From: a virus
Taxonomy: Duplodnaviria; Heunggongvirae; Uroviricota; Caudoviricetes
DNA: 62,834 nt
IMG/VR virus record: IMGVR_UViG_3300027365_000008
Strand: one strand, 5' to 3'
Part shown: in pieces, positions 21,497 to 53,620 of the stretch
How positions within the stretch are numbered: position 1 is the stretch's first letter
How the letters are laid out: each line of letters starts with the position of its first letter
Notes under the pieces: generated by a model
Database searches by the model: none
What the model saw: the letters and a program-made list of their open reading frames with translations, nothing else
Told to the model about the DNA's origin: nothing
Position numbers and translations under genes: made by a program

Positions 21497-21498
21497 TT

Positions 21499-35183: not shown

Positions 35184-38100
35184 ATGAACTCACTTGAACA
35201 AATGCTGTATGACTCCGCGCAACAGGCGCAGGAAGTCAATCGTCTTATCAATGAAATCCTTTCAAAGAGTAAGACAGAAGAAGTCATTCTGAATGCGAAT
35301 GGTGAAACTGTTCCTTCTCTGGCTCGTCGTGTTCATCTCTACCTGTCGTCGCTGGTTGCCAGCGGCGCTCTGGATGGTGAAGATGCGATTGGCCTCAGCA
35401 CCGCTAAAATCGATGCAAGTGGCAACCTGATTATCGATCTCACCAATGGCATTTCTCTGAATCTTGGTCGGGTCGAAGGGAAAGATGGTAAGTCGGTTAG
35501 CAATGCCGCTATCGTTGGTACTGATCTGGTAATTACTCTGGACGATGGCACGAACTTCAACGTGGGTCGAGTCGTTGGTGCGGATGGGGTGAATGTTACC
35601 AAAGCCTATATCGACACCGGACGACTCAAGGTTGATCTGTCGGATGGTAGCACTATCGACGCTGGCGATGTGACTCAGTTTGGTGGGGTTGCTGCTCAGG
35701 ATGCAGACATTACCAACGAAGGTGATCTGGTTGTTGTCTATACCGATGGCACGGTTGAAAATGTGGGTCGCGTTGTTGGTGCCAAAGGTGCTAACGGTCT
35801 TAACGTGGTTACCGCCTATGTGGATGGCAAGGGTCAGCTTAACCTTCTGATGTCCAATGGTGATACTATTATCGCCGGTAAGGTCAGCAAGACGGTGATC
35901 GATGGAACTACCAAGTCAGTCCAGAGTGCCACTATCAGCACCGATCCGGCTACCGAAGGGCACCTCATCATTACCCTGTCTGATGGTACCACCATTGATA
36001 CGGGTCGCGTAACCGGTCTTGATGGGACCAATGGTATTGATGGTGCTGACGGTAAAGATATTACCAATGCATCTATCAATACAACGGGCGAACTGGTCTT
36101 CGATTTCTCTGACGGTTCTACTCTGCCGGTCGGGATGGTCAAGAAGACGGTTATCGATGCCTCCAACGTCAGCATTGCGGATGCCACCAAAGACCCGAAC
36201 ACTGGAGTTCTGACGCTGACCGTTTGGGATGGCAGCAATCTTAAAACTTACGATCTGGGCGTTATCGATGGTAAGGATGGGGTTGATGGTGTTGATGGTG
36301 TTGGTATCACTGCTGCCACCTTCAATGGGGACACCCTGACCTTCACCATGTCTGATGGTTCGACCATGACAGCCGGTGATGTGGATCGGAGTGTTCTGAC
36401 CTCTGCCAATGTGGATCAAACCACTGGCGAACTCATTCTTACCTATACCCGTAGCGATGCAACTACCTTCGACAAGAATGTGGGCGTTGTGCGCGGTGTC
36501 GATGGTGTCGATGGTGTCTCTGTTTCCAATGTGACCATGGATGCGTCGGGACTACTCACCTTCACTTTCTCTGATGGCAATACCGTAACCACCTCTGGAA
36601 GCGTCTTTGCACCCACTGAGACGAACGCCGCACTGAGTGGCAATGATCTGGTCATCACCCTGTCTGACGGCTCTCAGAAGACGTTTACGGGCATTGTGGG
36701 GACTGATGGTACTGATGGTGACACTATCACTGGTGTGTCATTCGATAATACCACGGGCACGTTCACTTTCACCGCGTCGCAGTCTGGCGATTTCACCACT
36801 GGTCCTGTTTCTCGAAACATCAAGGATGCCTCGATTGACAGCGCGGGTGATCTCAACATCGAACTGTACGATGGAACTATCTTCCCTTGCGGAAATGTGG
36901 TTGGGACTGATGGTGCCGATGGCAAGGATGGTGCTTCCGTCAGTTCTATCGAGGTTCAAAGTGAATCACTCATCATCACCCTCGAAGACGGATCACAAAA
37001 GATCGTATCTGACATCGTTGGTGCGGATGGTACCGATGGCGTTGGGGTAACGACGATCAATTTTGACGGCACTGATCTTCTGATTAGTCTGTCTGATTCA
37101 TCGACTGTCACTGTTCCGGCTATCAAAGGGGTTGATGGTGTATCGATGGACAGTGTTACTATCGATGCCAATGACAATCTCGTGTTCACCATGTCAGACG
37201 GTACCATTACTCAGTTCTCTGGGCTTGCGGGTCAGGATGGCATTTCGATTGATACCCTGAGTTACGATGGAACCAATCTGAATATCGCTCTGACCGATGG
37301 CACTTCTACCAGTGTGCCTATGGTTAAGGGTGAAGACGGTCGAACCATTACTAACATGGCATTCGATGGAACGAATCTGAACATTGATCTTTCGGATTCT
37401 ACCAGCGTTTCAATTCCTTCCGTGAAAGGTGTTGATGCGGTTGGTATCGATACCATGGTGTCAACTGATACCGATGTCACCACCACTCTGACCGATGGGA
37501 CAACCACTAGCATCCCGTATAGCCAAGCCGTGGACGGCGTGGGTATCGTGGATGCCACAATCGATTTGTCTGATCGTCTGGTCTTCGACATGACGGACGG
37601 AACGACTATCGATGCAGGTCAACTGGGTCGTGGTATTGATTCTGCTAACGTCAACACCGATGGCGAATTGGAACTGATGTTGACCGATGGCACGGTTCTG
37701 GTTCCGGGTGTGGTTAAGGCGACCGATGGCACGTCCATGGCATCTGCTTCTATTGATGCCAACGATGATGTGAGTGTAACGCTCACCGATGGGACGGTGA
37801 TCCCGGTTGGTAATATCAGCCGCATCGAAGTATCCAGCATTGATCTTTCGACTGGCGATCTGATCATCACCCTGTCTGATTCGTCTACCATCAACGCGGG
37901 CCGTGTGAATGGTCTGGACGGTCGTTATGTGACTGGGGCGACCATCGATGCCAATGAAGACCTGACATTCCAAATGAGTCGTGATGGTGACATTCTGGTT
38001 GGTAATGTCATGGGGTCTGCGGGTCTTGCTATCGACAAGGCTGAAGTGTTCCTGAATGGTGATCTGGTTATTACCTATACCGATGGGTCTACCGAGCGTG

Positions 38101-40382
38101 CGGGTAACGTGGGTTCTGGTGCCGGTCTGACCCTCTGGGAAACGGGCAACAGTTATCAACAGGATCGTGTTGTTGTTCACAACGGTGGCATGTATATCGC
38201 ACTGGTGGATGGGGCAACGACCGAACCGCCGTCTACCGAATGGCGTGCGTTTGCGTTTGGTGATGAGATTACCGAAATCCGCAAACCGACCATTGTATCT
38301 CCGTCTGGAACGGCTGAGAACCTGAATCCTGATTTGGTCGGCTCTCCGTTTGCTCCGATTGTATCTGGTGATCCGCGTGACTACCGTGAGTTTCAGGTAG
38401 ACGTTTCCACTGGGGATTTCAGTGCACCGATTTATACGGCTCAAGAAAACTCTGACAGTCATGAAGTGGCAACTGCCCTAACTTCCGGGTCTGCTTATAT
38501 CTGGCGCTGCCGTGATGTGAGTGCATTGACTGGGTATATCAGTGATTGGAGTGATTCTGGTTCGTTCACTACGCCCACTGCGTATATCGATCAGCCTGTT
38601 GTGTCTCTTGATTCGAATGAAGACCCGGCTGCGGCTTCTGGTGCCACGGCGTTTACTTCTAGTCCGTTTGCTGTTACGGCTGGTACTGGTTCTGAAACTC
38701 ATGTCAGCACCGATTGGCAAGTTATCGAAACGGCTGGTGGTACCGTGGTGTCTTCCTCACTGGCGGATACGATCAACCTGACTTCTTGGTACGTTCCGAT
38801 GGGCGATCTGTCTCCGTCTACCGAGTATCAGGTTCAGGTACGTTATAACTCTAGCGCACTGGTTTCCGCTTGGAGTGCGGCGGTGACCTTTACAACCGAA
38901 GCGTCTTTCGACTATCTGGGTGCGCCTAGTGTTGCTTATAGTGGTAGGGATGCAACCCAAGCCTCAACCACCCCGCGTTTCCTGTCAACGCCCCTGAGCG
39001 TTTTGGGTGGATACACGGATACGCATGTGGCAAGTGATTGGGAAGTCGTTCGCAAGTCTGACGGTGTTATGATGTTCAGTTCCTATGGAGATACCACGAA
39101 CCTTCAAGACATCACCGTATCTCCGGCACTGGCACTGAATGAAACCTATCAGGCGCGTGTGCGATATCAGGCAGAGCGTTTCGGTTGGACAGCGTGGAGT
39201 AACTGGCAGGATGTTACGACAGCGGCTTACATTGACACTCCGGTGATTTCAACTACCGAAGATGTGAATGCGTTCCCGCTTGATGGTTTGGTGTCTGCTT
39301 CTGCTTTCTATGGTGTTAACGATACTCACGTCAGCACTGATTGGCAGGTGGTTCAACCTGTAACTCAGACTGTGGTATGGGAATCTCTTGGTGACACTAC
39401 CAACTTGGAGTCAGTGAATGTAAATATTCCTGCTGATTACATTTCCAGTGATCTTTTGATTCGGGTTCGATTCAATGGAAGTTCAGTGACAAGTGATTGG
39501 TCTACTGATCTGAGCGTGTTCACCATAAGCATCGTCCCTATCAATTCTTACAGTGGTTCTTACGACGACACCGTTAAGAAGATTGATCCTAACGGAAGTG
39601 AAGTTTGGACATTCAGTGGGCATACGAATAATGTTTGGGGTGTGGCCGTTGACTCTTCTGGTAATGTCTACAGTGGTTCTCAGGACGACACCGTTAAGAA
39701 GATTGATCCTAACGGAAGTGAAGTTTGGACATTCAGTGGGCATACGAATAATGTTTATAGCGTAGCCGTTGATTCGTCAGGCAATGTCTACAGTGGGTCT
39801 TATGACCAGACTGTTAAGAAGATTGATCCTAACGGAAATGAAGTTTGGACGTTCAGTGGACATACGAGTAATGTTTGGGGTGTGGCCGTTGATTCGTCAG
39901 GCAATGTCTACAGTGGTTCTTCTGACCAGACTGTTAAGAAGATTGATCCTAACGGAACTGAAATTTGGACATTCAGTGGGCATACGAATGCTGTTAACGG
40001 CGTAGCCGTTGACTCTTCTGGCAATGTCTACAGTGGTTCTTCTGACCAGACTGTTAAGAAGATTGATCCTAACGGAACTGAAATTTGGACATTCAGTGGA
40101 CATACGAATGTTGTTCGATCAGTGGCCGTTGATTCCTCTGGTAATGTCTACAGTGGGTCTTATGACCAGACTGTTAAGAAGATTGATCCTAACGGAACTG
40201 AAATTTGGACATTCAGTGGACATACGAATGTTGTTCGATCAGTGGCCGTTGATTCCTCTGGTAATGTCTACAGTGGTGCTTATGATAACACTGTCAAAAA
40301 GATTGATCCTGATGGGGCTGAAGTTTGGACGTTCAGTGGACATACGAATTATGTCATGGGAGTAGCCGTTGACCAGCACTAA
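35184..40382 (+). CDS. Long tail fibre/adhesin A (acidic beta repeats with GxDG linkers, ChtBD-like module, FnIII-like domains, 7-blade WD40 tip)
   Basis: 1732 aa; repeated ASIDxxGxLxxTLSDGxxxxxGxVxGxDG; WETGNSY...YIA...W module; C-terminal 7 x 40-aa repeats. Confidence 0.85.
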   Translation: MNSLEQMLYDSAQQAQEVNRLINEILSKSKTEEVILNANGETVPSLARRVHLYLSSLVASGALDGEDAIGLSTAKIDASGNLIIDLTNGISLNLGRVEGKDGKSVSNAAIVGTDLVITLDDGTNFNVGRVVGADGVNVTKAYIDTGRLKVDLSDGSTIDAGDVTQFGGVAAQDADITNEGDLVVVYTDGTVENVGRVVGAKGANGLNVVTAYVDGKGQLNLLMSNGDTIIAGKVSKTVIDGTTKSVQSATISTDPATEGHLIITLSDGTTIDTGRVTGLDGTNGIDGADGKDITNASINTTGELVFDFSDGSTLPVGMVKKTVIDASNVSIADATKDPNTGVLTLTVWDGSNLKTYDLGVIDGKDGVDGVDGVGITAATFNGDTLTFTMSDGSTMTAGDVDRSVLTSANVDQTTGELILTYTRSDATTFDKNVGVVRGVDGVDGVSVSNVTMDASGLLTFTFSDGNTVTTSGSVFAPTETNAALSGNDLVITLSDGSQKTFTGIVGTDGTDGDTITGVSFDNTTGTFTFTASQSGDFTTGPVSRNIKDASIDSAGDLNIELYDGTIFPCGNVVGTDGADGKDGASVSSIEVQSESLIITLEDGSQKIVSDIVGADGTDGVGVTTINFDGTDLLISLSDSSTVTVPAIKGVDGVSMDSVTIDANDNLVFTMSDGTITQFSGLAGQDGISIDTLSYDGTNLNIALTDGTSTSVPMVKGEDGRTITNMAFDGTNLNIDLSDSTSVSIPSVKGVDAVGIDTMVSTDTDVTTTLTDGTTTSIPYSQAVDGVGIVDATIDLSDRLVFDMTDGTTIDAGQLGRGIDSANVNTDGELELMLTDGTVLVPGVVKATDGTSMASASIDANDDVSVTLTDGTVIPVGNISRIEVSSIDLSTGDLIITLSDSSTINAGRVNGLDGRYVTGATIDANEDLTFQMSRDGDILVGNVMGSAGLAIDKAEVFLNGDLVITYTDGSTERAGNVGSGAGLTLWETGNSYQQDRVVVHNGGMYIALVDGATTEPPSTEWRAFAFGDEITEIRKPTIVSPSGTAENLNPDLVGSPFAPIVSGDPRDYREFQVDVSTGDFSAPIYTAQENSDSHEVATALTSGSAYIWRCRDVSALTGYISDWSDSGSFTTPTAYIDQPVVSLDSNEDPAAASGATAFTSSPFAVTAGTGSETHVSTDWQVIETAGGTVVSSSLADTINLTSWYVPMGDLSPSTEYQVQVRYNSSALVSAWSAAVTFTTEASFDYLGAPSVAYSGRDATQASTTPRFLSTPLSVLGGYTDTHVASDWEVVRKSDGVMMFSSYGDTTNLQDITVSPALALNETYQARVRYQAERFGWTAWSNWQDVTTAAYIDTPVISTTEDVNAFPLDGLVSASAFYGVNDTHVSTDWQVVQPVTQTVVWESLGDTTNLESVNVNIPADYISSDLLIRVRFNGSSVTSDWSTDLSVFTISIVPINSYSGSYDDTVKKIDPNGSEVWTFSGHTNNVWGVAVDSSGNVYSGSQDDTVKKIDPNGSEVWTFSGHTNNVYSVAVDSSGNVYSGSYDQTVKKIDPNGNEVWTFSGHTSNVWGVAVDSSGNVYSGSSDQTVKKIDPNGTEIWTFSGHTNAVNGVAVDSSGNVYSGSSDQTVKKIDPNGTEIWTFSGHTNVVRSVAVDSSGNVYSGSYDQTVKKIDPNGTEIWTFSGHTNVVRSVAVDSSGNVYSGAYDNTVKKIDPDGAEVWTFSGHTNYVMGVAVDQH
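39549..40376 (+). repeat. Seven tandem 120-bp WD40-coding repeats in fibre A
   Basis: Units start at 39549, 39669, 39789, 39909, 40029, 40149, 40269; units 5 and 6 differ at 2 of 120 nt. Confidence 0.95.
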
Positions 40383-40387
40383 ACTTT

Positions 40388-40407
40388 AACCCCTCTTCGG
40401 AGGGGTT
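40388..40407 (+). terminator. Intrinsic terminator with C-UUCG-G loop
   Basis: aacccctc-ttcg-gaggggtt followed by ttcttttt; TAAATA late motif follows at 40428-40433. Confidence 0.85.
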
Positions 40408-40449
40408 TTCTTTTTCCTACCCATCGATAAATACCATTGAAAAATCTTA

Positions 40450-43400
40450 ATGATGGAGATATCGATGGCAACGATCAATGACTACCGCCTAGCTATTGCC
40501 CGGTGCGTCCAAGCATCTGAACTGTATCGAGATGTAATCAGCAAGGACGACACGGCTGTAATTAACCTAGAACACAAAACCATCCCGTCACTCGCCAAGG
40601 TCGTCAAAGACCACCTTAACGCGATGGACTATTCCTCGTATCACGGTAAAGATGCCATTGGTATCGATACCATGGTAATCACGGGAGAAGACCTTGAAGT
40701 TACCCTGTCCGATGGTTCTTCTTTCATCGCGGGCTCCGTGGTGGGTCACGATGCCATTGGTGTCGATAACATCACCATGACCAACGGCGATCTTACGGTA
40801 AGCGAGGATGATGGCACGTCCAATACCTTTACCGGTATTGTCGGAACTGATGGTGAAACGACTTCCACGATTACCATCCACCCCAATGGGGACGTGGAAT
40901 TTATCGATGGTACCGGTGCTTCCACCATCGTTGGTAACATTTCTGATCTGGCGGGGGGCCAAAAGATTGCATCAGCGGGGCTGGATTCGAATGGCTATCT
41001 AACGATTGGATTCACGGATGGAACCAGCACCACGATCAATAAAGATATCACTGGTGAACCGGGCGAGGATGGCGTCTATATTACCACTGCTGATCTGGAT
41101 TTGACTTCAGAAACCATTGGAATGGATTTGACCGATGGCACCACACTGACTGTCAAGAACGTTCCGGTAATCAACAAACCTGCCGCTGATTATGAAGTTG
41201 CCAGCACTGAAATCACTGATGTGAATGGTGAGCGTCATCTGATGTTCACGGATTCTAATCAGAACATCAATGATCTGGGTAACATCGATGGGTCAGATGG
41301 AACGGATGGTGTTGATGGTACCGATTCCACTTACGTCAAGACTATCCATTATGACGATACCAATCTCGCACTGTCATTCACGCTGACCGATGGCACCACT
41401 CTGTCTGCGGGTAATTTCAGCATCGAAAACGTGGCTGGTGATGCCACGGTGACCAATGCCTATACCGGTTCCACGGGCGCACTGCTTCTTGATCTCACCA
41501 TCAATGGCAATGCCTATACACTCCCGTGTGGTAAGATCGTTGGTAAGGATGGAAAAGATGCGGTCGATGGTGGGTCTGTTACGGATGCCTATATCGATCA
41601 AGGTGTCCTTCATGTGGTAGATGACATGAATGGCGACCAAGCCTTGATTCATGTCGATGCAGTCAAAATCGATAAGGCATCTATCTCCCCGAAAGGTGTT
41701 CTGACGTTCTCGCTCACCGATCCTACCCTGCCGGATATTGAAGCCGGGCAAACCGATGGTCTGAATGGTCAGGTTGGTGATGTCATCATTTCCATGTCAA
41801 TCGACAGCGACACCAATCACATGGTTCTCCAATCTGTTCTTGGTGCAACCTATGATGTCGGTGTTGTTAGGGAACCGACGCAAGTTCAAGTCGATATGGT
41901 CAATTCTGAACTGATTTTTACTTTTGCCGATGGTTCGACTGCCAATCTCGGTGATATCCATGGCATCGATGGGGTTAACGGTGGACTTCTGACAGATATC
42001 GCTATCAATGGAACCACGTTGACCTTCACCTTCGATACAGGCAGTTTTGATGTGACGATCAATGGTGTTAATGATGCTCTGGTCGATGATGCCACCGGCA
42101 ACCTCAATGTCACACTGTCTGACGGCACTACTGCAACCTTTGGTCCGGTTCGAGGCACCGATGGGGTTGATGGAAAGGACGGTCTGGATGGCTATTTCCC
42201 GCTCGATGGGGCTGGCATTCAAAGTGATCGTAGCCTTCAGTTCAATATGTCTGATGGTACTACTCTGACCTTCAAGGATATCGAAGGTTATACCGGCGTC
42301 GATGGCGCATACCCGACCGCTTTTCGTGTTGATACCGTCAATAAGGTTAAGACTCTGATTGCCGAAATGCGTCAACCGGACGGGTCTTCCAAAGACCTTA
42401 CCGTGGGTCCGATTGATGGTACCGATGCGCCTTATCCGACAACAATAACGTTCGCCAATGACCAATACACCATCGATATGTCTGATGGTAGTCAGTTTAT
42501 TGTCCCCGGCGTAAATGGCGATAATGCACAACTGATTGATACTATCACCATTGAAAGCGGCACTCGTGAATTTGTCATGACCATGGCAGATGGAACCGAG
42601 TATCGTCCCGGCGTCATTGATGGTGCTGATGCCGATTACATTACTGCGTTTTCGATCAATGCAGATCGTGAACTGGTGGCGTCTCTTGATCTTGCGGGTG
42701 ATCAGATCATCGGACTCATCGACGGTAAACCGAATGTGTGGCTAGACACGCTCACTGTCGATTCTAACGGCGATTTGATTGCTACCCTGACCGATGGTAC
42801 TACCCAGTTCAATCTCGGTCCTACGCAGGGTGTGGACGTGACTAACGTCTATCTGACCCCTGATCTGAAGATTGCGGCTGATACCTCTGATGGCAATACC
42901 GTAACGTCCACGGTGTCATTGGATCGGACTATCAACAGTGCCGGTATCGATGCCAATGATGATCTTTTCATCGATGTGGCGAATCAACCCACTCCGATCA
43001 TTGCGGGTAACATTCCTCCCGGTACGGATGCGGTTCGTATCGACAGTATGTATGTTGCCAGTGATCGTCTCAAACTGGAACGTACCGATGGAACGATTGA
43101 CGATCTTGGACCTCTGAAACGTACCTATGTGAGTGGTGCTTATCTCACCGCCAATCGTGAACTGGTTGTTCAGCTTTCCGATGGAACAGAAACGCCTCCC
43201 AAAGCGGTGCTTGGTGCTGATGGTCGTGATGTGGTTGATGCCTATATCGATATCGATGGCACACTGGTCATCACCATGTCTGACAGTGAAATCATTCGCC
43301 CCGGAATTATCAAAGGTGATGATGGACTGAGCGTTTCTAGTTCTTCTATCGTCAATGGCGAACTGATCTTTACCATGGCAGACACCACACAAATCAATGC

Positions 43401-45753
43401 CGGTTTTGTGGACGCAGACTTCGGTTTCAACCCGTGGGACGCACTGGATGCTCCTTACGATGAAGGTCAGACGGTTACCCATATGGGTGATGCGTACATG
43501 GCTATTCGTCAAACGTCTCAGGAACCTCCGGGTGAAGATTGGATGAAGGTTCGTGCGCCGGGCGATGCCTATGATCAGCGTGCGCCCCTGTTGATTTCTC
43601 CGATCAATGGGAATGTAGCCGAAGGTGAAAAGCCGTATCTGCTGGGAACCAAGTTCGGTAAGTTCTTCTCCGTCGATGAACGCCTGTATCGTCAGTTTGA
43701 AATCGATGTTGAAGGCGGGGATTTCTCGAATCCGATTTACACTGCTAACGAGAACTTCGATGGGCATCAAGTTACCATGGCCCTCGATCCGACCAAAACC
43801 TACATCTGGCACGCCCGTGATGTGAATGCGTCCACTGGGTATGTTAGTATTTGGAGTAAGACAGGAACCTTCACGGTCCCCAGTGCTTACATTCAGACTC
43901 CGAGTGTCGCATCTATGGTTGCGGACACCACTCAGATTGATAGTGTGGTTGGCTTCATCGGTTCACCTTACACTCGTAATGGAGTCAGCAATTCCCATAT
44001 CGCGTCTGATTGGGTTATCCGCGATGCAGATACTCAGGAAGTGATCTATGAGAGCCTGAATGATACCACCAATCTGACTAAGATTTCTATTCCTTTCGGA
44101 ATCCTTCAGGTCTCTCGCAATTATGAAGTTCGCCTTCGTTATCATGGGGATGATGGTCATAGTTCATCATGGTCAAGCTGGCTGGCTTTCCAGACCAAGG
44201 ATAAGTTCACGTTTGCTATCAAACCGCTGCTGACCTATCTGGGGTCTGATCGTAACGCAACTCCGGCTGAACCGCGTTTCCGGGCGACCTTCAATGACTA
44301 TGAGTTCATCAAGGATGATCTCTATGGAGAACCGCGTGCGACTGCCCAGTGGCAGGTGACTAAGGTTTCTGACGGGAGTGTAGTGTGGGAAACTCAATCT
44401 CGTTTTGTTGAGATTGAAGACATGATTGTGTCTGAGTCTCTGACTTCTGGCGTCCAGTACGAGATTCATGTTCGTTACTCAGGCGGCAATTATGCGGGGC
44501 CGAGTGATTGGAGTGATCCGGTTCAATTCACGCCCAGCTACAGCATTGCTGATCCGGTTCTGTCCACGAGTTACGATGTCAACGCATTCCCTTATGCGGG
44601 TGGTTCATTCTCGGTAGCACCTTTCTCCGTCACCAATGAAAAGATTGTCAGTGTGGATTGGGAAGTTGTGTCAATCGATACTGGTGAGGTTTTGGTGGGT
44701 GATTATATCAATTTTGATAAACCGACCACATTCAAATTTGAGGTAGATGGAAAAACCTACGGATTGACCGATGCCAAGGTTCGTGTTCGTTTCCACGGTC
44801 AGTATTATACAACGCCGTGGGCGGAGATGAGTTTCACATTCGCTGAATATGTTCCTATCTATGTTTACAGTGGTTCTACTGACCAGACTGTTAAGAAGAT
44901 TGATCCTGACGGAAGTGAAGTTTGGACATTCAGTGGTCACACGAAAACTGTTAACGGCGTAACCGTTGATTACTCTGGTAATGTTTATAGTGGTTCTAAC
45001 GACTACGCCGTTAAGAAAATCGATCCTGATGGGGCTGAAGTTTGGACGTTCAGTGGTCATACGAATAATGTTATGGGAGTAGCCGTTGACTCTTCAGGTA
45101 ATGTCTACAGTGGTTCTGCGGACAACACCGTTAAAAAGATTGATCCTAACGGAAGTGAAGTTTGGACGTTCAATGGACATACGAATGTTGTTCGATCAGT
45201 GGCCGTTGATTCGTCAGGTAATGTCTACAGTGGGTCTTATGACCAGACTGTTAAGAAGATTGATCCTGACGGAAGTGAAGTTTGGACGTTCAGTGGACAT
45301 ACGAATGCTGTTTATAGCGTAGCCGTTGACTCTTCTGGCAATGTCTACAGTGGTAGTGGTTCTGCGGACAACACCGTTAAAAAGATTGATCCTAACGGAA
45401 GTGAGGTTTGGACGTTCAGTGGGCATACGAATATTGTTATGGGAGTAGCCGTTGACTCTTCAGGCAATGTCTACAGTGGTTCTTACGATAACACCGTTAA
45501 GAAGATTGATCCTAACGGAAGTGAAGTTTGGACGTTCAGTGGTCACACTGGTTATGTTCGGGGTGTAGCCGTTGATTCCTCTGGTAATGTCTACAGTGGT
45601 TCTGCGGACAACACCGTTAAAAAGATTGATCCTGACGGAAATGAAGTTTGGACGTTCAGTGGACATACGAGTTATGTTAACTCGGTCGCATGCACCAAAA
45701 TACAAACAGAACTCGTTAAACCAGTCCTGATCAAATCTAAATACACCGCATAA
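40450..45753 (+). CDS. Long tail fibre/adhesin B, paralog of A
   Basis: 1767 aa, same architecture; shared TIPSLA anchor motif and YIW..RDV..STGY.S.WS domain; WD40 tip plus a short C-terminal tail. Confidence 0.85.
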   Translation: MMEISMATINDYRLAIARCVQASELYRDVISKDDTAVINLEHKTIPSLAKVVKDHLNAMDYSSYHGKDAIGIDTMVITGEDLEVTLSDGSSFIAGSVVGHDAIGVDNITMTNGDLTVSEDDGTSNTFTGIVGTDGETTSTITIHPNGDVEFIDGTGASTIVGNISDLAGGQKIASAGLDSNGYLTIGFTDGTSTTINKDITGEPGEDGVYITTADLDLTSETIGMDLTDGTTLTVKNVPVINKPAADYEVASTEITDVNGERHLMFTDSNQNINDLGNIDGSDGTDGVDGTDSTYVKTIHYDDTNLALSFTLTDGTTLSAGNFSIENVAGDATVTNAYTGSTGALLLDLTINGNAYTLPCGKIVGKDGKDAVDGGSVTDAYIDQGVLHVVDDMNGDQALIHVDAVKIDKASISPKGVLTFSLTDPTLPDIEAGQTDGLNGQVGDVIISMSIDSDTNHMVLQSVLGATYDVGVVREPTQVQVDMVNSELIFTFADGSTANLGDIHGIDGVNGGLLTDIAINGTTLTFTFDTGSFDVTINGVNDALVDDATGNLNVTLSDGTTATFGPVRGTDGVDGKDGLDGYFPLDGAGIQSDRSLQFNMSDGTTLTFKDIEGYTGVDGAYPTAFRVDTVNKVKTLIAEMRQPDGSSKDLTVGPIDGTDAPYPTTITFANDQYTIDMSDGSQFIVPGVNGDNAQLIDTITIESGTREFVMTMADGTEYRPGVIDGADADYITAFSINADRELVASLDLAGDQIIGLIDGKPNVWLDTLTVDSNGDLIATLTDGTTQFNLGPTQGVDVTNVYLTPDLKIAADTSDGNTVTSTVSLDRTINSAGIDANDDLFIDVANQPTPIIAGNIPPGTDAVRIDSMYVASDRLKLERTDGTIDDLGPLKRTYVSGAYLTANRELVVQLSDGTETPPKAVLGADGRDVVDAYIDIDGTLVITMSDSEIIRPGIIKGDDGLSVSSSSIVNGELIFTMADTTQINAGFVDADFGFNPWDALDAPYDEGQTVTHMGDAYMAIRQTSQEPPGEDWMKVRAPGDAYDQRAPLLISPINGNVAEGEKPYLLGTKFGKFFSVDERLYRQFEIDVEGGDFSNPIYTANENFDGHQVTMALDPTKTYIWHARDVNASTGYVSIWSKTGTFTVPSAYIQTPSVASMVADTTQIDSVVGFIGSPYTRNGVSNSHIASDWVIRDADTQEVIYESLNDTTNLTKISIPFGILQVSRNYEVRLRYHGDDGHSSSWSSWLAFQTKDKFTFAIKPLLTYLGSDRNATPAEPRFRATFNDYEFIKDDLYGEPRATAQWQVTKVSDGSVVWETQSRFVEIEDMIVSESLTSGVQYEIHVRYSGGNYAGPSDWSDPVQFTPSYSIADPVLSTSYDVNAFPYAGGSFSVAPFSVTNEKIVSVDWEVVSIDTGEVLVGDYINFDKPTTFKFEVDGKTYGLTDAKVRVRFHGQYYTTPWAEMSFTFAEYVPIYVYSGSTDQTVKKIDPDGSEVWTFSGHTKTVNGVTVDYSGNVYSGSNDYAVKKIDPDGAEVWTFSGHTNNVMGVAVDSSGNVYSGSADNTVKKIDPNGSEVWTFNGHTNVVRSVAVDSSGNVYSGSYDQTVKKIDPDGSEVWTFSGHTNAVYSVAVDSSGNVYSGSGSADNTVKKIDPNGSEVWTFSGHTNIVMGVAVDSSGNVYSGSYDNTVKKIDPNGSEVWTFSGHTGYVRGVAVDSSGNVYSGSADNTVKKIDPDGNEVWTFSGHTSYVNSVACTKIQTELVKPVLIKSKYTA
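44866..45700 (+). repeat. Seven tandem 120-bp WD40-coding repeats in fibre B (unit 5 is 126 bp)
   Basis: Units start at 44866, 44986, 45106, 45226, 45346, 45472, 45592; extra agtggt in unit 5; near-identical to the fibre A repeats. Confidence 0.95.
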
Positions 45754-45765
45754 ACGGAGAGATAC

Positions 45766-46919
45766 ATGAAGATTGATGTCACATGGTACGATCCAAATGG
45801 GATCGAAGATGGATACCGGGTTTACCGGGGCGATGGTGCCCCGGTTGATCTCAACAACCTACCTGCTCATGTCGCTGACCTCCCAGCGGATACGATGCTG
45901 TACAGTGATACTTCGGTCACCTTCGGTGCGGAGTATTACTATCTAATTGAAGCCTATAAGGGGGCTGATTCCGTTTATGGGGATCAGATTCACGCTTTTG
46001 CGGTCCCTGATCAGAATGTGTATGTGGCGGTTACCCAAAGAATAGAAAGCATTGACGTGGATGGAAACCAGCTATGGCAGTTACTCCACCCAGTGGAATC
46101 GTAAATAGTGTTGTCAATGATGTTAATGGATATTCATATTTGGCATCAGACGACAACAAAGTTAGAAAGGTCGATCCTTCCGGTGTAGAAGTCTGGAGCG
46201 TCAACCCTTCCGCTTCATCATTGAATTGTGTTGCAATTGACGATCAAGGAAGTGTATATGTCACTTCGACAGCCGGTACCCTGTTCAAATTGGACCCGAA
46301 TGGAAACCAGCTATGGTCATACGGGGATGGAACAGTGATCATTGGTGCAATGGCGGTCGATTATGCAACCGGTCAATCCTTTATTGGGTTTGCGGATGGA
46401 AGGATTAAATCTGTATCTACCGATGGTGTCGAATTGTGGAACGTATCGAAAGGTTCCTTGTCATCGGGTCCGTCTGTCACCTCAATCGACGTAAATGACA
46501 CCATGCTGGTCGTCGGGGATGCTAACTTTGCTGTCACATCATTATCTAAAGTGGATGGAAGTGGAAGTAGTTATGAATGGATATATGTAGGACTGACCGA
46601 CGAACCCAATTCCATTTCTTTCACACGCACCGGGAATATTGTCGTTGGCGGTAAGGAAGGTGTGGTGTGCTATCTGGACACTAATGGGAATGAACTCGAC
46701 AGAATCACCTTTGCGGCTGCTGTTCACGACGCCCGCACTGATTATAAGGACAATTTGTTCGTTTGTACGGAAGATGGCAATCGCCTGATCAAATTGGATG
46801 AAAACTACACCAAGCAATGGGAAGTAGCTTATGGAACGGTTATTCCATTACAGTCTTCCGTGGAAAGCATTCAGTTTAATCTCAATGAACCGTCTTATGT
46901 GTCTGGCGCTAACGTCTAA
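45766..46919 (+). pseudogene. FnIII-propeller gene split by an apparent 1-bp deletion (ORFs 45766-46104 and 46074-46919)
   Basis: Restoring one T after tgg at 46077 gives a continuous blade DGNQLW-SVT-PPSGIVNSV, matching NGNQLWSY at 46300 and LWSVT in 49136. Confidence 0.6.
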
Positions 46920-46928
46920 GGGGATTCC

Positions 46929-47993
46929 ATGGCAATCAAATTAACATGGTACGATACCAATGCGATTGAAGGAGGCTACCGGGTGTATCGCTCGGTATCT
47001 CCCATGGACCCTGCTGCCCTGCCGACTCCCATCGGTGATGTTGCGGCGGATGTTCGAGAGTTCACGGATAGCACGGCAGTAGTAGGAACCACCTATTACT
47101 ATCGGGTTTCTGCCTACAAAGGATCAGATGAAGTCGTTGGTGATGAGATTACGATTCTGGCAGAAGATTTATACTTAGGTCCGGGGTCTACTACTTTCGT
47201 TGGTGGCGATTACGGTACAACTGGATTCTTGGGTGAAGTCGATACGACGACTCTGATTGATGGGGATACCCTCGCAAGCGATATTGGTTTGACTGAAGGG
47301 ACGAGTAAAAACCCAACTGAACCGTGGTTGAAGTTTGCTATTGATGGAAAGATTCTTTTCGTTGCCAAGAAGACATATCGATACTCCGTGACTTGGGATG
47401 CTATCAACGCGGCGAACGCGGTGTATGGAGACAAAATAATCACCATAGGTGGCTATGCTTTCAAACTTCGTCTCCTTACCGGTGCTGAAAGTGATCCTTC
47501 ATCGCTTACAAGAAACACGGCTGATCCAGCGGGTTCAGAAGTTTCAGAATGGAATAAGTTGATTTACAAAGTCCATGTCGATGTTCCGTCTTCCCAATCA
47601 GGGGCTAATTGGGTCAATTACACGAACACCGATTTGGATGTAGGTGGTACCTCATCCGGCACCGCAACGTGGTGTCAAGAACATCATACTTATGCTAGTA
47701 ATTATGCGGTTTTTAGGGGTTACAACGGCATGAGTATGTTCAATAGCACGGGTTCAAACGCTTTTGCGGCAGCATACGGCTGGCGTCCCGTTCTCGAACT
47801 CTTACCGAAAGATTATGTGTTCCCGGTTACTAATACGACTGGCGTCTACTTTGGTTACAACCAACCGGTTATAACCAACGGTACCAGTGAACAGCAATTC
47901 GCTTCAGATATACAACCTGTTAAGAGTAGTTCGACCGGGTATTACTCTTACAACAAGCCAATCATCACTAATGCAGAGCAGACACAAGCATAA
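46929..47993 (+). CDS. FnIII-module protein with a distinct globular head and duplicated C-terminal tail
   Basis: MAIKLTWYDTNAIEGGYRVYRS...YYYRVSAY, then GFLGEV...WLKF...SEWNKLIY...WRPVLE. Confidence 0.75.
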   Translation: MAIKLTWYDTNAIEGGYRVYRSVSPMDPAALPTPIGDVAADVREFTDSTAVVGTTYYYRVSAYKGSDEVVGDEITILAEDLYLGPGSTTFVGGDYGTTGFLGEVDTTTLIDGDTLASDIGLTEGTSKNPTEPWLKFAIDGKILFVAKKTYRYSVTWDAINAANAVYGDKIITIGGYAFKLRLLTGAESDPSSLTRNTADPAGSEVSEWNKLIYKVHVDVPSSQSGANWVNYTNTDLDVGGTSSGTATWCQEHHTYASNYAVFRGYNGMSMFNSTGSNAFAAAYGWRPVLELLPKDYVFPVTNTTGVYFGYNQPVITNGTSEQQFASDIQPVKSSSTGYYSYNKPIITNAEQTQA

Positions 47994-48005
47994 CGGAGTT
48001 TTAAT

Positions 48006-48251
48006 ATGGGTACAGTAACGATCAATTGGACAGATACTAACGAACTCGAAGTTAAATACCGAGTATACCGTGGGGATGCATATTTCGATACGGCGTCTCT
48101 ACCGGCTTTCATCGCCGAACTGACAGAAAACACAGTCACCTATACCGATACTGCGGTAACTACGGGACAACAGTATTGGTACCGAGTGAGTGCGGTATTT
48201 CCTAATAGCGTAGAAGTATTCAGTGACGCAGCTTTGTTCACGGCAGCCTAA
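48006..48251 (+). CDS. FnIII-module-only protein
   Basis: 81 aa: VTINWTD...YRVYRG...LPA...YTDT.V..G.QYWYRVSA. Confidence 0.8.
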   Translation: MGTVTINWTDTNELEVKYRVYRGDAYFDTASLPAFIAELTENTVTYTDTAVTTGQQYWYRVSAVFPNSVEVFSDAALFTAA

Positions 48252-48265
48252 AGGAGAAATAGACA

Positions 48266-49132
48266 ATGGCAAATGGCGGTGTTGTTCTTAGATGGTCTAC
48301 CCAAGACCCTAACGTAGAAACATTTAACATCTATCGTAGCACATCAGCAATTGATCCTGCTGCGCTCCCTGCTGCTCTGGATACTGTAGTAGGCACTGTG
48401 ACTGAATACAAAGATTATGGTGTCACTGAAGGAGTAACTTATTACTATAGGATTGAAGCGACAAAGCTGGGGAAAACCTCGATTAGTGATAGCATAAAAG
48501 TCGTCGCAACACCAATTGCTGCGCCAGATGTGTTTGGTGATGGCTCTACTGTGGCTACCTACCTTTTTGATGGTGATTTATCTGAAATCACCAACGGAAA
48601 TAATGGAGTGTGGGCAGTAGGATCACCATCTTATGACGTTGGGCAAAATGGTCAATGCATATCTACTGATGGAACAAATTACGTAACCGCTCCCGTAACC
48701 GTACCGGGAGCCTTCATAGCGGTGTCAATGTGGGTTAGATTGAATACTGCATCAACAGGGCTTAATTCTGTATTGGAGATCGAGTATGACGCTGGGAAGA
48801 CGTTTACTATTTCGACAAATTCTCAATCTATAGGCGTCATTACCAATGGTACCAATTCTAGTGAACTGTCTATTAGAAAGAATTTAACAGTAGGAACTTT
48901 TTATCACGTTTATGCGGATTCTGACGGTGATATGTTTATAGACAATGTGCAAGTGTCAGAAATTGGTAGAACAGCTTTTTACACCAATACCGCCATAGGC
49001 CAAATGGTATTATCCTCCCGCACTAAGGGAGGTATAGCCAATGCACCACAATACGGAATCGATTTGCTTAGAATTTACAATAGAAAACTTACAGCGCAAG
49101 ACATAGATACATTATATAAAAGGGAGTCGTGA
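48266..49132 (+). CDS. FnIII module fused to a LamG/concanavalin-like domain
   Basis: VLRWS...FNIYRS...YYYRIEA; ATYLFDG, AVSMWV, FYHV, IDLLRIYNRKLT. Confidence 0.75.
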   Translation: MANGGVVLRWSTQDPNVETFNIYRSTSAIDPAALPAALDTVVGTVTEYKDYGVTEGVTYYYRIEATKLGKTSISDSIKVVATPIAAPDVFGDGSTVATYLFDGDLSEITNGNNGVWAVGSPSYDVGQNGQCISTDGTNYVTAPVTVPGAFIAVSMWVRLNTASTGLNSVLEIEYDAGKTFTISTNSQSIGVITNGTNSSELSIRKNLTVGTFYHVYADSDGDMFIDNVQVSEIGRTAFYTNTAIGQMVLSSRTKGGIANAPQYGIDLLRIYNRKLTAQDIDTLYKRES

Positions 49133-49135
49133 TAG

Positions 49136-50449: not shown

Positions 50450-50474
50450 GAATTGAAAATTACGGAGATCAAAC

Positions 50475-51674: not shown

Positions 51675-51698
51675 TTTTCAATTAGACTAAATACAATC

Positions 51699-51763
51699 AG
51701 TGGAATGATTTTGCCTCCTTTGCGTTCCACATTATTAGCCCCTCAATTAGAGGGGCATTTTTA
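51699..51763 (+). ncRNA. Candidate ~60-nt late small RNA with an anti-SD loop
   Basis: TAAATA at 51688-51693; hairpin gtggaatg/cgttccac with loop attttgCCTCCTttg; then terminator; no plausible ORF. Confidence 0.35.
51738..51756. terminator. Terminator between convergent genes
   Basis: gcccctc-aatta-gaggggc followed by attttt. Confidence 0.75.
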
Positions 51764-52150: not shown

Positions 52151-52159
52151 GAAAACTCC

Positions 52160-52657: not shown

Positions 52658-52697
52658 TCTCCTTTAATCTGATAAGCTATGGTTTTGGGGGTGTCTG

Positions 52698-52703
52698 TAT
52701 TTA
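52698..52703 (-). promoter_or_regulatory. Late promoter (ctaaatac) for 52657/52150; a divergent TAAATA at 52763-52768 precedes phoH
   Basis: TAAATA cores on both strands of the divergent intergenic region. Confidence 0.55.
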
Positions 52704-52713
52704 GTGTATGAAT

Positions 52714-52739
52714 ATAGATATATCTTGATGTCAAATCCC
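52714..52739 (+). repeat. 26-bp motif (copy 2)
   Basis: Identical to 4683-4708. Confidence 0.85.
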
Positions 52740-53612: not shown

Positions 53613-53620
53613 TTTTTGTG

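What the first reader, a model, noticed from the sequence alone, without database searches (positions are those of the whole stretch)
39549..45700. Two fibre tips built from homogenised WD40 repeats that vary almost only at surface positions: a candidate recombination-driven receptor diversifier
SEEN: both ~1750-aa fibres end in 7 x 120-bp repeats with consensus YSGS-X-D-X-TVKKIDP(N/D)GxE(V/I)WTFSGHT-X-X-V-X-(G/S)-VAVDSSGNV. The scaffold is nearly invariant, including synonymous sites (A units 5 and 6 differ at 2/120 nt). Five to six positions are hypervariable: after GS Y/Q/S/T/N/A; after D D/Q/N/Y; after GHT NN/SN/NA/NV/NY/KT/NI/GY/SY; after V W/Y/N/R/M. Identical DNA blocks are shared between the two genes in different unit positions: aatgttgttcgatcagtggccgttgattc in A5, A6 and B3; gtttatagcgtagcc in A2 and B4; gttaacggcgta in A4 and B1. 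Related propellers at 20093 and 21499 are diverged, so homogenisation is specific to these tips. ESTABLISHED: these positions match the top-face binding residues of WD40 blades, and near-identical WD40 repeats with a few diversifying sites are the hallmark of fungal HET-E/HNWD allorecognition proteins. INFERENCE: the 14 units form a shared pool shuffled by gene conversion or unequal crossover, possibly via UvsX/UvsY/UvsW. This would be a reverse-transcriptase-free alternative to DGRs for varying a receptor-binding surface. The changes are not adenine-restricted, so it is not a DGR.
Basis: partly seen in the sequence, partly recalled or inferred. Interest (0 to 1): 0.88.

Follow-up and report, generated by a model that had tools for sequence, protein, structure and literature searches.

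The report
Shuffled WD40 blades on phage fibre tips
Two neighbouring giant fibre genes of an uncultured T4-like phage each end in a seven-bladed WD40 propeller whose near-identical blades differ almost only at the classic ligand-contact positions and have exchanged DNA within and between the genes, a phage counterpart of the fungal HET-E/HNWD recognition repeats, with no sign of a dedicated or fast diversifying machine.

Summary
Gene A (35184-40382) and gene B (40450-45753) each end in about 6.9 units of 120 bp. AlphaFold2 models both tips as closed seven-bladed WD40 propellers (pLDDT 96 and 93; TM 0.92 to a WRAP-T designer WD40).

Blades are 82-84% identical in protein, against 17-31% in five other propeller genes of the same window. 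The three most variable codons (28, 30, 5) are the published WD40 top-face hotspots R1-2, R1 and D-1.

One claim is overstated. Synonymous sites are not nearly invariant (mean pS 0.34). They are still far more alike than in the rest of A versus B (pS 0.73, 32% amino-acid identity).

Units are mosaic: PHI p<=2e-4, 5' and 3' block distances are uncorrelated, and multi-nucleotide haplotypes are re-assorted. There is no A-to-B positional correspondence.

Best reading: concerted evolution by ordinary homologous recombination plus diversifying selection on the binding face. This is an HNWD-like regime in a phage receptor-binding tip.

A programmed or high-frequency "RT-free DGR alternative" is not supported. 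Only one clonal sequence exists, from one sample, and no close relatives were found.

Highly repetitive prokaryotic WD40s with variable hotspots are already published. This scan has also noted similar phage propellers on other DNA. Interest is moderate.

The parts
35184..40382 (+). Fibre gene A (1732 aa). It has an N-terminal ~1000 aa of short DGT/GxDG-type repeats, then four FN3-like 'STDWQV' modules, then the C-terminal WD40 tip.
   Evidence: ORF and translation. Weak PHROG tail-fibre hit and PHROG 8401 beta-propeller hit. Collinear paralogue of B. Atlas look-alikes are viral collagen/CBM/tail-fibre clusters, a lead only.
39549..40379 (+). Array A: units A1-A7, starting at 39549 + 120k. A7 is truncated after strand a. 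It encodes a closed 7-bladed WD40 propeller.
   Evidence: TRF, unit table, Pfam WD40, AF2 pLDDT 96.4 and pTM 0.91 with 28 strands, Foldseek 7BID TM 0.92 and 2YMU.
40450..45753 (+). Fibre gene B (1767 aa; the ENA gene call starts 5 codons later). It is a paralogue of A, 32% identical outside the tip and 81% inside it.
44866..45690 (+). Array B: units B1-B7, starting at 44866, 44986, 45106, 45226, 45352, 45472 and 45592. It is also a closed 7-bladed WD40 propeller.
   Evidence: TRF, AF2 pLDDT 93.0 and pTM 0.88 with 28 strands. Identical in a second assembly.
45349..45360 (+). Tandem AGTGGT duplication at the B4/B5 junction. It adds Gly-Ser to one b-c (top-face) hairpin and shifts the array register by 6 nt.
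   Evidence: Sequence, spacing of 126 nt, and a longer loop between the strands at model residues 183-187 and 194-197.
45691..45750 (+). 20-residue C-terminal tail of B beyond the propeller, predicted to be disordered. A has no counterpart.
   Evidence: pLDDT is about 50-60 for the last two blocks.
20093..22974 (+). Two propeller genes of the same repeat family with diverged blades (internal identity 0.29 and 0.31). They serve as the internal control for the homogenisation.
46074..51674 (+). Downstream genes that include three more diverged propellers (46074, 49136, 50475) and a LamG head (48266). They belong to the same host-recognition neighbourhood.
55560..57533 (+). UvsX/RecA-type recombinase gene. 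It is a candidate, but untested, catalyst of the exchanges.
   Evidence: PHROG 97 UvsX-like hit at residues 374-636. RecA_N on the ENA gene call.

Best explanation
Genes A and B are paralogous phage fibre proteins. The last ~280 residues of each fold into a seven-bladed WD40 propeller that most likely forms the receptor-binding tip.

The 14 blade-coding units are a single evolving pool. The near-identical 120-bp scaffolds, with exact matches up to 114 nt within A and 51 nt between A and B, let ordinary homologous recombination move pieces of blades within and between the two genes. The likely routes are in-register gene conversion and occasional unequal exchange corrected back to seven blades. 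This keeps the scaffold homogeneous (concerted evolution).

Selection meanwhile keeps and spreads different residues at the ligand-contact positions on the top face. These are R1-2 (unit position 28), R1 (30) and D-1 (5), plus their neighbours 7, 27 and 31.

The result is two propellers that each present seven different blade surfaces drawn from a shared alphabet of cassettes.

Shown: the fold, the location of the variability, the relative youth of the tips compared with the rest of the genes, and the mosaicism.

Inferred: that the tip binds the host receptor, that selection rather than mutation bias drives the variable codons, and that the phage's own recombination system does the exchanging. 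The process acts on evolutionary time, not as a switch.
For: Fold:
- Pfam WD40 at E 2e-28 and 6.5e-32.
- AF2 models with 28 strands, pLDDT 96.4 and 93.0.
- Foldseek TM 0.92, rmsd 1.0 to 7BID, also 2YMU and WDR5.

Place of variation:
- Entropy peaks at codons 28 (2.41 bits), 30 (2.27) and 5 (2.22), then 17, 7, 27 and 31.
- DSSP puts positions 5 and 7 in the b-c turn and positions 27, 28 and 30 in the d-a loop and the start of strand a.
- The rule V-R1-R2-V and 'residue before Asp' of Wu et al. 2012 (PMC3419727) assigns them as R1-2, R1 and D-1.
- The same pairs-around-a-conserved-residue pattern occurs in HET-E/HNWD (PMC1805685).

Selection contrast:
- Scaffold pN is 0.014-0.025 against pS 0.34. 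The five top-face codons have pN 0.50, which is 1.5 times scaffold pS.

Younger tips:
- Outside the tips, A versus B has 32% amino-acid identity, pS 0.73 and same-codon use of 0.44, equal to the codon-usage null of 0.41.
- In the tips the figures are 81%, pS 0.36 and same-codon use of 0.77.

One pool:
- pS for A-by-B pairs (0.34) equals that within A (0.29) and within B (0.38), and equals positional Ai-Bi pairs (0.33).

Mosaicism:
- 64-71% of informative site pairs are incompatible. PHI p<=2e-4, and p=0.003 after excluding same-codon pairs and permuting whole codons.
- 11 of 91 pairs have unusually long shared tracts, against 4.6 expected.
- Mantel r between 5' and 3' block distances is -0.14.
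- A four-gamete cycle of multi-nucleotide haplotypes that include synonymous markers links A1, A2, A3 and B4.
- A5 and A6 differ only by a 2-nt patch that matches the A3/B4 haplotype.

Specificity:
- Five other propellers in the window, and the fibre homologues P0027, P0065, P0067, P0117 and P0034, have internal identity of 0.17-0.43.

Reality of the arrays:
- A second assembly is identical, and the unit count exactly closes a propeller.
Against: - Distance-dependent incompatibility is not significant when only scaffold (mostly synonymous) sites are used (p 0.2-0.4, 13-14 sites). The mosaic signal therefore rests largely on the variable codons, where selection could contribute.
- No pair of units passes the tract test after correction for 91 comparisons.
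- pN/pS of about 1.5 at the top-face codons is based on five codons and non-independent pairs. No codon-model test could be run.
- Binding to a host receptor is inferred from position and fold only. The host is unknown.
- There is only one genome, so units clustering by genome rather than by position, the classic proof of concerted evolution, could not be tested.
- No 3D coordinates were available to me. 'Top face' rests on strand topology and published sequence rules, not on measured solvent exposure.
Confidence: 0.66

Rival explanations
1. Young propeller without ongoing exchange. A single blade was amplified to seven recently, as in the 'highly repetitive WD40' route of Hu et al. 2017. The finished tip was copied once into the paralogous fibre. 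Since then the units have only accumulated point mutations, with selection at the hotspots. The apparent mosaicism would be homoplasy at a few fast or selected sites.
For: - Highly repetitive prokaryotic WD40s with variable hotspots are common and are interpreted as young duplications (PMC5587647).
- Fibre homologues elsewhere have ordinary diverged blades, so this tip is a derived state.
- Scaffold-only sites show no significant distance effect.
- Neighbouring units in A are often the most alike: A1/A2 differ at 7 nt, A4/A5 at 9 and A5/A6 at 2.
Against: - Unit divergences range from 2 to 26 of 102 nt, which does not fit one burst.
- 29 of 44 variable sites are parsimony-informative, and most site pairs are incompatible.
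- The re-assorted haplotypes span several nucleotides and include synonymous markers. Examples are the rare GGG at codon 3 linked to TAT at codon 5 in A3, A6 and B4, and Ser-31 encoded as AGC after TAT but as TCA after CGA. These are unlikely to arise repeatedly.
- There is no Ai-Bi correspondence, although one is expected if a finished array had been copied after its units had diverged.
Confidence: 0.2
2. Programmed or high-frequency diversifier. The two arrays act as mutual cassette libraries that are shuffled at measurable frequency in each phage population, giving an RT-free functional analogue of a DGR or of antigenic-variation cassette systems.
For: - The architecture is suitable: two expressed arrays, conserved 54-nt 'VKKIDP..EVWTFSGHT' segments between the variable clusters, and a recombination-proficient T4-like phage with a UvsX-type gene nearby.
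- One very recent event is visible, a 114-nt identical tract.
Against: - Mean pS among units is 0.34, so most exchanges are old.
- Two assemblies of the one available sample give one and the same sequence at about 70-84x depth.
- There are no silent donor cassettes elsewhere in the record.
- No dedicated enzyme or site was seen.
- Both arrays hold exactly seven units. Frequent unequal exchange would break the closed propeller.
Confidence: 0.07
3. Assembly artefact. The arrays, or their unit order and number, are chimeras produced by short-read assembly of a repeat.
For: - The record is a metagenome-assembled contig.
- The second assembly breaks inside unit A3.
- k=31 contigs shatter across both arrays.
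- Units A1-A3 are supported by one assembly only.
Against: - All of array B and A3(part)-A7 are identical in the second assembly.
- All laid contig pieces are at least 99% identical, with no alternative letters.
- Reading frames stay open, and both arrays give exactly the 28 strands needed for a closed 7-bladed propeller at very high model confidence.
Confidence: 0.04
4. Diversity-generating retroelement target. The variable codons are written by mutagenic reverse transcription from a template repeat.
For: Several variable codons (17, 27, 28) vary as NNT around AAT, which superficially resembles mutagenesis of AAY codons.
Against: - There is no RVT_1 hit in the 101.6-kb record, although it is only about 65% complete.
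- There is no extra copy of the unit that could be a template.
- 15 invariant A columns and 16 invariant T columns lie inside the units, and the variable columns have all four bases as majority.
- Codons 5, 30 and 31 cannot be derived from one AAY template.
Confidence: 0.01

Closest known systems
Podospora anserina HET-D/HET-E/HNWD NACHT-WD40 allorecognition genes (Paoletti et al. 2007, PMC1805685; Chevanne et al. 2010, PMC2873952)
   Same: - WD40 repeats with high internal conservation.
- Variable residues occur in two pairs flanking a conserved residue, one pair in the d-a loop and one in the b-c turn, on the top face.
- Repeats are exchanged within and between paralogous genes (concerted evolution), with diversifying selection at the variable sites.
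   Different: - There is no NACHT/STAND or HET domain. Here the propeller ends a ~1750-aa virion fibre.
- Repeat number is fixed at seven in both genes, rather than highly polymorphic.
- Nucleotide identity between units is lower (75-98%, against up to 100%).
- RIP does not apply.
- The presumed ligand is a host-cell surface structure, not a cytoplasmic protein.
Highly repetitive (HR) prokaryotic WD40 proteins (Hu et al. 2017, PMC5587647), e.g. Nostoc punctiforme Npun_R6612 (PDB 2YMU) and its WRAP-T designer derivatives (PDB 7BID)
   Same: - Internal identity is at least 0.7 (0.82-0.84 here).
- Conservation holds everywhere except at the predicted interaction hotspots.
- These are the best structural matches (TM 0.92 and 0.82).
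   Different: - Those are cellular proteins, often STAND/NLR-like or kinases.
- Their repetitiveness is read as recent duplication, without evidence of exchange between genes.
- Here two paralogous genes share one unit pool, and the units are mosaic.
T-even gp38 adhesins with conserved glycine-rich motifs separating hypervariable segments (Trojet et al. 2011, PMC3157838)
   Same: A T4-type phage host-recognition tip is built as a conserved scaffold that presents short hypervariable segments. The conserved motifs serve as the places where recombination re-assorts the segments.
   Different: - The fold is unrelated and there is no sequence similarity.
- gp38 shuffling is between co-infecting phages, not between internal repeats and paralogues of one genome.
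Diversity-generating retroelements acting on phage receptor-binding proteins (e.g. Bordetella phage BPP-1 Mtd; tentaclins, PMC10743442)
   Same: Variation is focused on a few surface codons of a phage receptor-binding domain with a rigid scaffold.
   Different: There is no reverse transcriptase, no template repeat and no adenine specificity. Diversity here is re-assorted from existing units, not generated de novo at high rate.
Beta-propeller receptor-binding domains of other phages (e.g. the five-bladed propeller platform of Staphylococcus phage phi11 RBP, PMC4901313). Within this family: Salicola phage SCTP-2 gp99, a candidate Paceibacterota (CPR) surface protein (P0009), and membrane-anchored cell-surface proteins (P0054, L013).
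   Same: - A propeller sits at the business end of a fibre or surface protein.
- SCTP-2 gp99, P0006, P0015, P0012 and L013 carry the same ~40-aa unit with variability at the same positions.
   Different: - The phi11 propeller is not WD40 and is not internally repetitive.
- The SCTP-2 and cellular proteins have other architectures, and their function is equally untested.

Membership tests
WD40 repeat / 7-bladed WD40 beta-propeller (Pfam PF00400) | Sequence match to the family model above its curated threshold | tested here: met
   98 bits (A) and 109 bits (B) against a cut-off of 27, with 5-6 separate repeat matches.
WD40 repeat / 7-bladed WD40 beta-propeller (Pfam PF00400) | Four-stranded antiparallel blades arranged as a closed propeller with velcro closure | tested here: met
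   28 strands in both AF2 models. The chain starts with strand b and ends with strand a, so the last blade is completed by the N-terminal strands. Foldseek TM is 0.92 to 7BID, with WDR5, Fbw7 and 2YMU also matching.
WD40 repeat / 7-bladed WD40 beta-propeller (Pfam PF00400) | GH dipeptide in the d-a loop, Asp in the b-c turn and a complete D-H-S/T-W tetrad (common in the family but not obligatory) | tested here: inconclusive
   GH (positions 24-25), Asp-6 and Ser-2/Ser-4 are invariant. Strand c reads VKKI with no Trp, and the invariant Trp-20 lies in strand d. The tetrad as defined in PMC3419727 is therefore probably incomplete. This is a departure from the textbook repeat, not an exclusion.
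Highly repetitive (HR) WD40 class of Hu et al. 2017 | Internal repeat identity of at least 0.7 | tested here: met
   Mean pairwise blade identity is 0.82-0.84. Definition from PMC5587647.
Highly repetitive (HR) WD40 class of Hu et al. 2017 | High diversity confined to predicted interaction hotspots | tested here: met
   The top three entropies fall on R1-2, R1 and D-1.
HNWD / HET-E-type recognition repeats (works-like comparison) | NACHT (STAND) NTPase N-terminal to the WD40 array | tested here: not met
   There are no NACHT, NB-ARC or HET hits in A or B. The N-terminus is fibre-like. This is not a member of that gene family.
HNWD / HET-E-type recognition repeats (works-like comparison) | Concerted evolution: repeats exchanged within and between paralogous genes | tested here: met
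   Tip pS is 0.36 against 0.73 in the rest of the genes. There is no positional correspondence. PHI, codon-block permutation, Mantel and haplotype re-assortment tests all point the same way. The cross-genome test was not possible because only one genome exists.
HNWD / HET-E-type recognition repeats (works-like comparison) | Positive diversifying selection on paired top-face codons | tested here: inconclusive
   pN at codons 5, 7, 27, 28 and 30 is 0.50, against scaffold pS of 0.34 (CI 0.24-0.45). Placement is identical to HNWD. No likelihood codon model was run.
HNWD / HET-E-type recognition repeats (works-like comparison) | Repeat-number polymorphism between alleles | not testable with these tools
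   One sample, one sequence. Both arrays have seven units.
Diversity-generating retroelement | Reverse transcriptase gene near the target | tested here: not met
   No PF00078 match in the 101.6-kb record. The genome is about 65% complete, so this is not absolute.
Diversity-generating retroelement | Template repeat / variable repeat pair with adenine-specific differences | tested here: not met
   There is no further copy of the unit. There are 15 invariant A columns, and the variable columns have all four bases as majority.
T-even gp38 adhesin | Sequence similarity, or glycine-rich motifs alternating with hypervariable segments | tested here: not met
   No such family appears among the Pfam or PHROG hits. 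The fold is a WD40 propeller. The resemblance is one of design only.

The most novel reading that the evidence does not exclude
In replicating populations of this phage, the two seven-blade arrays exchange blade cassettes at a frequency high enough to matter ecologically, roughly 1e-4 or more per genome per generation. The exchange is driven by the phage's own UvsX-type recombination-dependent replication. The pair of fibre tips would then work as a built-in, reverse-transcriptase-free host-range diversifier, with each gene serving as the donor library for the other.
Probability: 0.12. Interest if true: 0.8.

Novelty: new variant of a known kind. Interest (0 to 1): 0.55.

Why it matters
Phage host range is set by the tips of fibres. 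The known ways of varying them are point mutation, module swapping between phages, invertible segments and DGRs.

This locus shows a further route that is documented for fungal immune receptors but, as far as my literature searches reached, not described for phage receptor-binding proteins. A propeller made of near-identical blades can be re-tiled by ordinary homologous recombination, both within a gene and between two paralogous fibres. Selection meanwhile diversifies only the three canonical contact residues of each blade.

If this is general, it gives a sequence-only rule for locating the specificity residues of a whole class of uncharacterised phage and cell-surface adhesins. The same unit with the same variable positions recurs in Salicola phage SCTP-2, in a candidate Paceibacterota (CPR) protein and in cell-surface proteins, and this scan has noted similar phage propellers elsewhere. 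It would also give a natural scaffold for engineering binding specificity in laboratory phage-host systems.

Tried and rejected
1. Close relatives for a cross-genome test. megablast of the two genes against 50,697 phage records found nothing. Pattern scans of IMG/VR and of JGI metagenome contigs found only distant relatives, at most 68% identity and of other architectures. No orthologous arrays could be compared.

2. Population variation. Only one public run holds the sequence, a subsurface metagenome from 2017 kept as contigs. Laying it gave 34 pieces at 99% identity or better, with no other letters or joints. Contigs cannot show rare variants, so this says little. Two sibling runs (X2, X3) had no cover, which proves nothing.

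3. Mosaic test on scaffold-only sites was not significant. Single-pair tract tests are not significant after correction.

4. Mapping variable residues on 3D coordinates. I used DSSP strand topology and published sequence rules instead.

5. Reverse transcriptase search in the longer ENA contig: that record is not held.

6. PDB sequence search with the non-propeller 1455 residues gave no match. The Atlas feature search of residues 1-1050 gave only weak viral collagen/CBM/tail-fibre look-alikes (0.84 or less, a lead only).

7. DGR and assembly artefact were considered and rejected (see the rival explanations).

8. No complex prediction was run, because no partner is known.

Full report
WHAT IS THERE

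The window is the minus strand of a 101,610-bp IMG/VR viral record, about 65% complete. It comes from a myovirus-like phage. Supporting genes in the window are a gp6-type baseplate wedge, a large terminase, a UvsX-type recombinase and a helicase.

Two adjacent plus-strand ORFs, A (35184-40382, 1732 aa) and B (40450-45753, 1767 aa), are collinear paralogues. Each has three parts:
- about 1000 residues of short DGT/GxDG-type repeats;
- four FN3-like modules;
- a C-terminal array of 120-bp repeats.

TRF reports the arrays at 39549-40372 (6.9 copies) and 44861-45679 (6.8 copies). No other direct repeat of 40 nt or more exists in the window. I fixed the unit register as YSGS...GNV. That gives A1-A7 at 39549 + 120k, and B1-B7 at 44866, 44986, 45106, 45226, 45352, 45472 and 45592. 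The 6-nt shift in B comes from a tandem AGTGGT duplication at the B4/B5 junction.

FOLD

Pfam calls WD40 far above threshold. AlphaFold2 on small alignments of homologous propellers gives 28 strands, meaning seven four-stranded blades, for both tips. Scores are pLDDT 96.4 and pTM 0.91 for A, and pLDDT 93.0 and pTM 0.88 for B.

The chain begins with strand b and ends with strand a, so the 6.9 repeats are exactly what a closed propeller with velcro closure needs. The best structural matches are the WRAP-T designer WD40 (7BID, TM 0.92, rmsd 1.0) and its natural parent, the 'highly repetitive propeller' 2YMU. WDR5, Fbw7 and other canonical WD40s follow.

In unit coordinates:
- strand a is positions 29-34;
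- strand b is positions 40 and 1-4;
- strand c is positions 9-12;
- strand d is positions 18-22.

One departure from the textbook repeat: strand c reads VKKI without the tetrad Trp, and the invariant Trp lies in strand d.

WHERE THE UNITS DIFFER

Thirty-one of 40 codons are essentially invariant in protein. Entropy by codon is as follows.

| Codon | Entropy (bits) |
|---|---|
| 28 | 2.41 |
| 30 | 2.27 |
| 5 | 2.22 |
| 17 | 1.78 |
| 7 | 1.73 |
| 27 | 1.29 |
| 31 | 0.99 |

The published rule for WD40 hotspots identifies R1 and R2 as the residues enclosed by two V/L/I at the start of strand a. R1-2 lies two residues before R1, and D-1 is the residue before the tetrad Asp (Wu et al. 2012, PMC3419727). 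Applied to V29-x30-G/S31-V32 and to S4-x5-D6, the rule makes positions 28, 30 and 5 the R1-2, R1 and D-1 hotspots. These are the three most variable codons.

Positions 5 and 7 flank the invariant Asp in the b-c turn. Positions 28 and 30 flank the invariant Val at the d-a loop and the start of strand a. This is the same 'two selected codons around a purified one' arrangement, in the same two loops, that Paoletti et al. described for HET-E/HNWD (PMC1805685).

Positions 15 and 17 lie in the c-d loop, on the opposite face. They vary by single-nucleotide steps only. I had no model coordinates, so 'top face' rests on topology and these rules.

HOW HOMOGENISED ARE THE UNITS?

Unit pairs differ at 2-26 of 102 nt. 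Mean scaffold pS is 0.34, with a bootstrap CI of 0.24-0.45.

The comparison that matters is with the rest of the two genes.

| Measure, A versus B | Outside the tips | Inside the tips |
|---|---|---|
| Amino-acid identity | 32% | 81% |
| pS | 0.73 (saturated) | 0.36 |
| Same codon at identical residues | 44% (codon-usage null 41%) | 77% |

So the units share ancestry far more recent than the duplication that made A and B. Scaffold pN is 0.014-0.025, giving dN/dS of 0.03-0.06. The five top-face codons have pN 0.50, about 1.5 times the scaffold synonymous divergence. That suggests diversifying selection but does not prove it.

The homogeneity is specific to these tips. Five other propeller genes of the same repeat family in this window have blade identity of 0.17-0.31. 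Fibre homologues of the same length and architecture from other metagenomes have 0.28-0.43.

ONE POOL, AND MOSAIC

Scaffold pS is the same within A (0.29), within B (0.38), between A and B (0.34) and between same-position units Ai-Bi (0.33). The two arrays are therefore not a diverged whole-array duplicate.

The recombination tests gave these results:
- 29 of 44 variable sites are parsimony-informative, and 64-71% of their pairs are incompatible.
- The PHI statistic is below all or nearly all of 5000 permutations (p<=2e-4).
- Sites inside one variable codon co-vary trivially, so I repeated the test without same-codon pairs and permuted whole codons. The result was p=0.003.
- With scaffold sites alone there is no signal (p 0.2-0.4 on 13-14 sites).
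- A GENECONV-like tract test gives 11 of 91 pairs at p<0.05, against 4.6 expected. None survives correction.
- Distances in the 5' block (codons 1-11) and the 3' block (codons 27-33 or 27-40) are uncorrelated (Mantel r -0.14 and -0.12).

The haplotypes themselves are the most persuasive evidence:
- The 5' type with the rare GGG at codon 3 plus TAT-GAC-CAG-ACT occurs in A3, A6 and B4.
- The type GCG-GAC-AAC-ACC-GTT-AAA occurs in B3, B5 and B7.
- The 3' cassettes are CGA-TCA (A5, A6, B3), TAT-AGC (A2, B4), AAC-GGC (A4, B1), ATG-GGA (A7, B2, B5) and TGG-GGT (A1, A3).
- These are combined freely. A1, A2, A3 and B4 form a complete four-gamete cycle.
- Ser-31 is AGC after Tyr but TCA after Arg, which argues for identity by descent rather than convergence.
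- A5 and A6 differ only by a 2-nt patch that reproduces the A3/B4 haplotype.

Exact matches reach 114, 80 and 73 nt within A and 51 nt between A and B. The C-terminal edge units A7 and B7 are among the most divergent, as expected if edges take less part in exchange.

WHAT IT IS NOT

It is not a DGR:
- there is no RVT_1 hit in the record (the genome is incomplete);
- there is no template copy;
- there are 15 invariant A columns inside the units, and the variable columns have every base as majority.

It is unlikely to be an assembly artefact. An ENA contig of 157,894 bp (k141_143451) is 100% identical over window 39839-55753. That covers all of B and A3(part)-A7, though tellingly it ends inside unit A3. 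The source-type run covers the region at about 70-84x with no alternative letters in its contigs.

WHAT COULD NOT BE SHOWN

Only one run (a subsurface metagenome) holds the phage, and only as contigs. No close relative exists in the phage records, IMG/VR or the JGI metagenome contigs. The two decisive tests were therefore impossible. These are whether units cluster by genome rather than by position, and whether array variants exist within a population.

Nothing indicates a dedicated mechanism or a high rate. With pS near 0.34, most exchanges are old. UvsX involvement is a reasonable guess for a T4-like phage, no more.

COMPARISON WITH WHAT IS KNOWN

The evolutionary regime matches the fungal HNWD genes in four defining behaviours: high internal conservation, paired top-face variable codons, exchange within genes, and exchange between paralogues. 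The protein is not a member of that family, because it has no NACHT domain. The array length is also fixed at seven.

The class 'highly repetitive prokaryotic WD40 with variable hotspots' is published (Hu et al. 2017, PMC5587647) and fits by definition. That work reads repetitiveness as youth and does not treat exchange between genes.

The nearest phage precedent in design is the gp38 adhesin, where conserved glycine-rich motifs separate hypervariable segments and host recombination (Trojet et al. 2011, PMC3157838).

A full-text search for WD40 together with phage tail-fibre and receptor-binding terms returned no paper containing 'WD40'.

The same ~40-aa unit with the same variable positions occurs in several other proteins:
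- Salicola phage SCTP-2 gp99;
- a candidate Paceibacterota protein;
- a Lactobacillus protein;
- membrane-anchored surface proteins (P0054, L013).

So the module is widespread.

This scan has already noted comparable phage propellers on other DNA (e1-3459823, e1-3483095, e1-1685140). I did not re-test those notes.

VERDICT

- Observation: confirmed, with the synonymous-site caveat.
- Interpretation: partly supported. A shared, recombining pool of blades with hotspot diversification is well supported. A programmed, RT-free 'diversifier' is not.
- Novelty: a new variant of a known kind, namely HNWD/HR-WD40-type repeat evolution in a phage receptor-binding tip spread over two fibre genes.
- Interest: moderate, 0.55.

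Noticed in passing
window 39839 (inside unit A3): An ENA assembly of the same phage (contig k141_143451, 157,894 bp) ends exactly inside array A and is otherwise 100% identical for 15.9 kb. The genome is therefore at least ~158 kb plus whatever lies upstream, and the IMG/VR record (101.6 kb) is a fragment.
   Followed up: partly
window 45349-45360: A tandem AGTGGT duplication adds Gly-Ser to the b-c hairpin of one blade of tip B. It is the only length change in either array, and it lies on the variable face.
   Followed up: partly
window 55560-57533: The 657-aa UvsX/RecA-type ORF matches UvsX only over residues 374-636. Residues 54-383 hit PHROGs annotated PhoH-like and ribonucleotide reductase. 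This looks like an insertion (intein?) or a fusion in the recombinase.
   Followed up: no
window 45766-51674: The genes downstream of fibre B include three more diverged propellers (46074, 49136, 50475) and a LamG/ConA-like head (48266).
   Followed up: partly
L013:2-2557 (Ga0102928_1022034) and protein P0054: Cell-surface-type proteins with a C-terminal membrane anchor carry highly repetitive units 64-68% identical to the phage units (YSGSYDDTVKKISPDGSEVWTFNGHS...), varying at the same positions. The blade module seems to be shared between cellular adhesins and phage fibres.
   Followed up: no
window ~38100-38260 (A residues ~975-1025) and ~43390-43550 (B residues ~980-1035): Both fibres have a W..G..Y..G..V.H.G..Y.A......PP....W motif reminiscent of CBM5/12 carbohydrate-binding modules. 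Atlas look-alike clusters carry CBM_5_12 in a minority of members, and Pfam gave no significant hit.
   Followed up: no
window 21499-22974 (residues 409-480): Two adjacent blades of this otherwise diverged propeller are about 60% identical to the homogenised unit consensus (YVGSDDNTVRKIDPTGSEIWKF.RHTDIVRGLDVDYLGYV). They are a possible in-genome source of the amplified blade.
   Followed up: no
window 34088-34702: A DUF4376 protein lies immediately upstream of the fibre genes. As far as I recall, this domain is commonly seen in phage tail-fibre or fibre-assembly proteins; I did not check this here.
   Followed up: no
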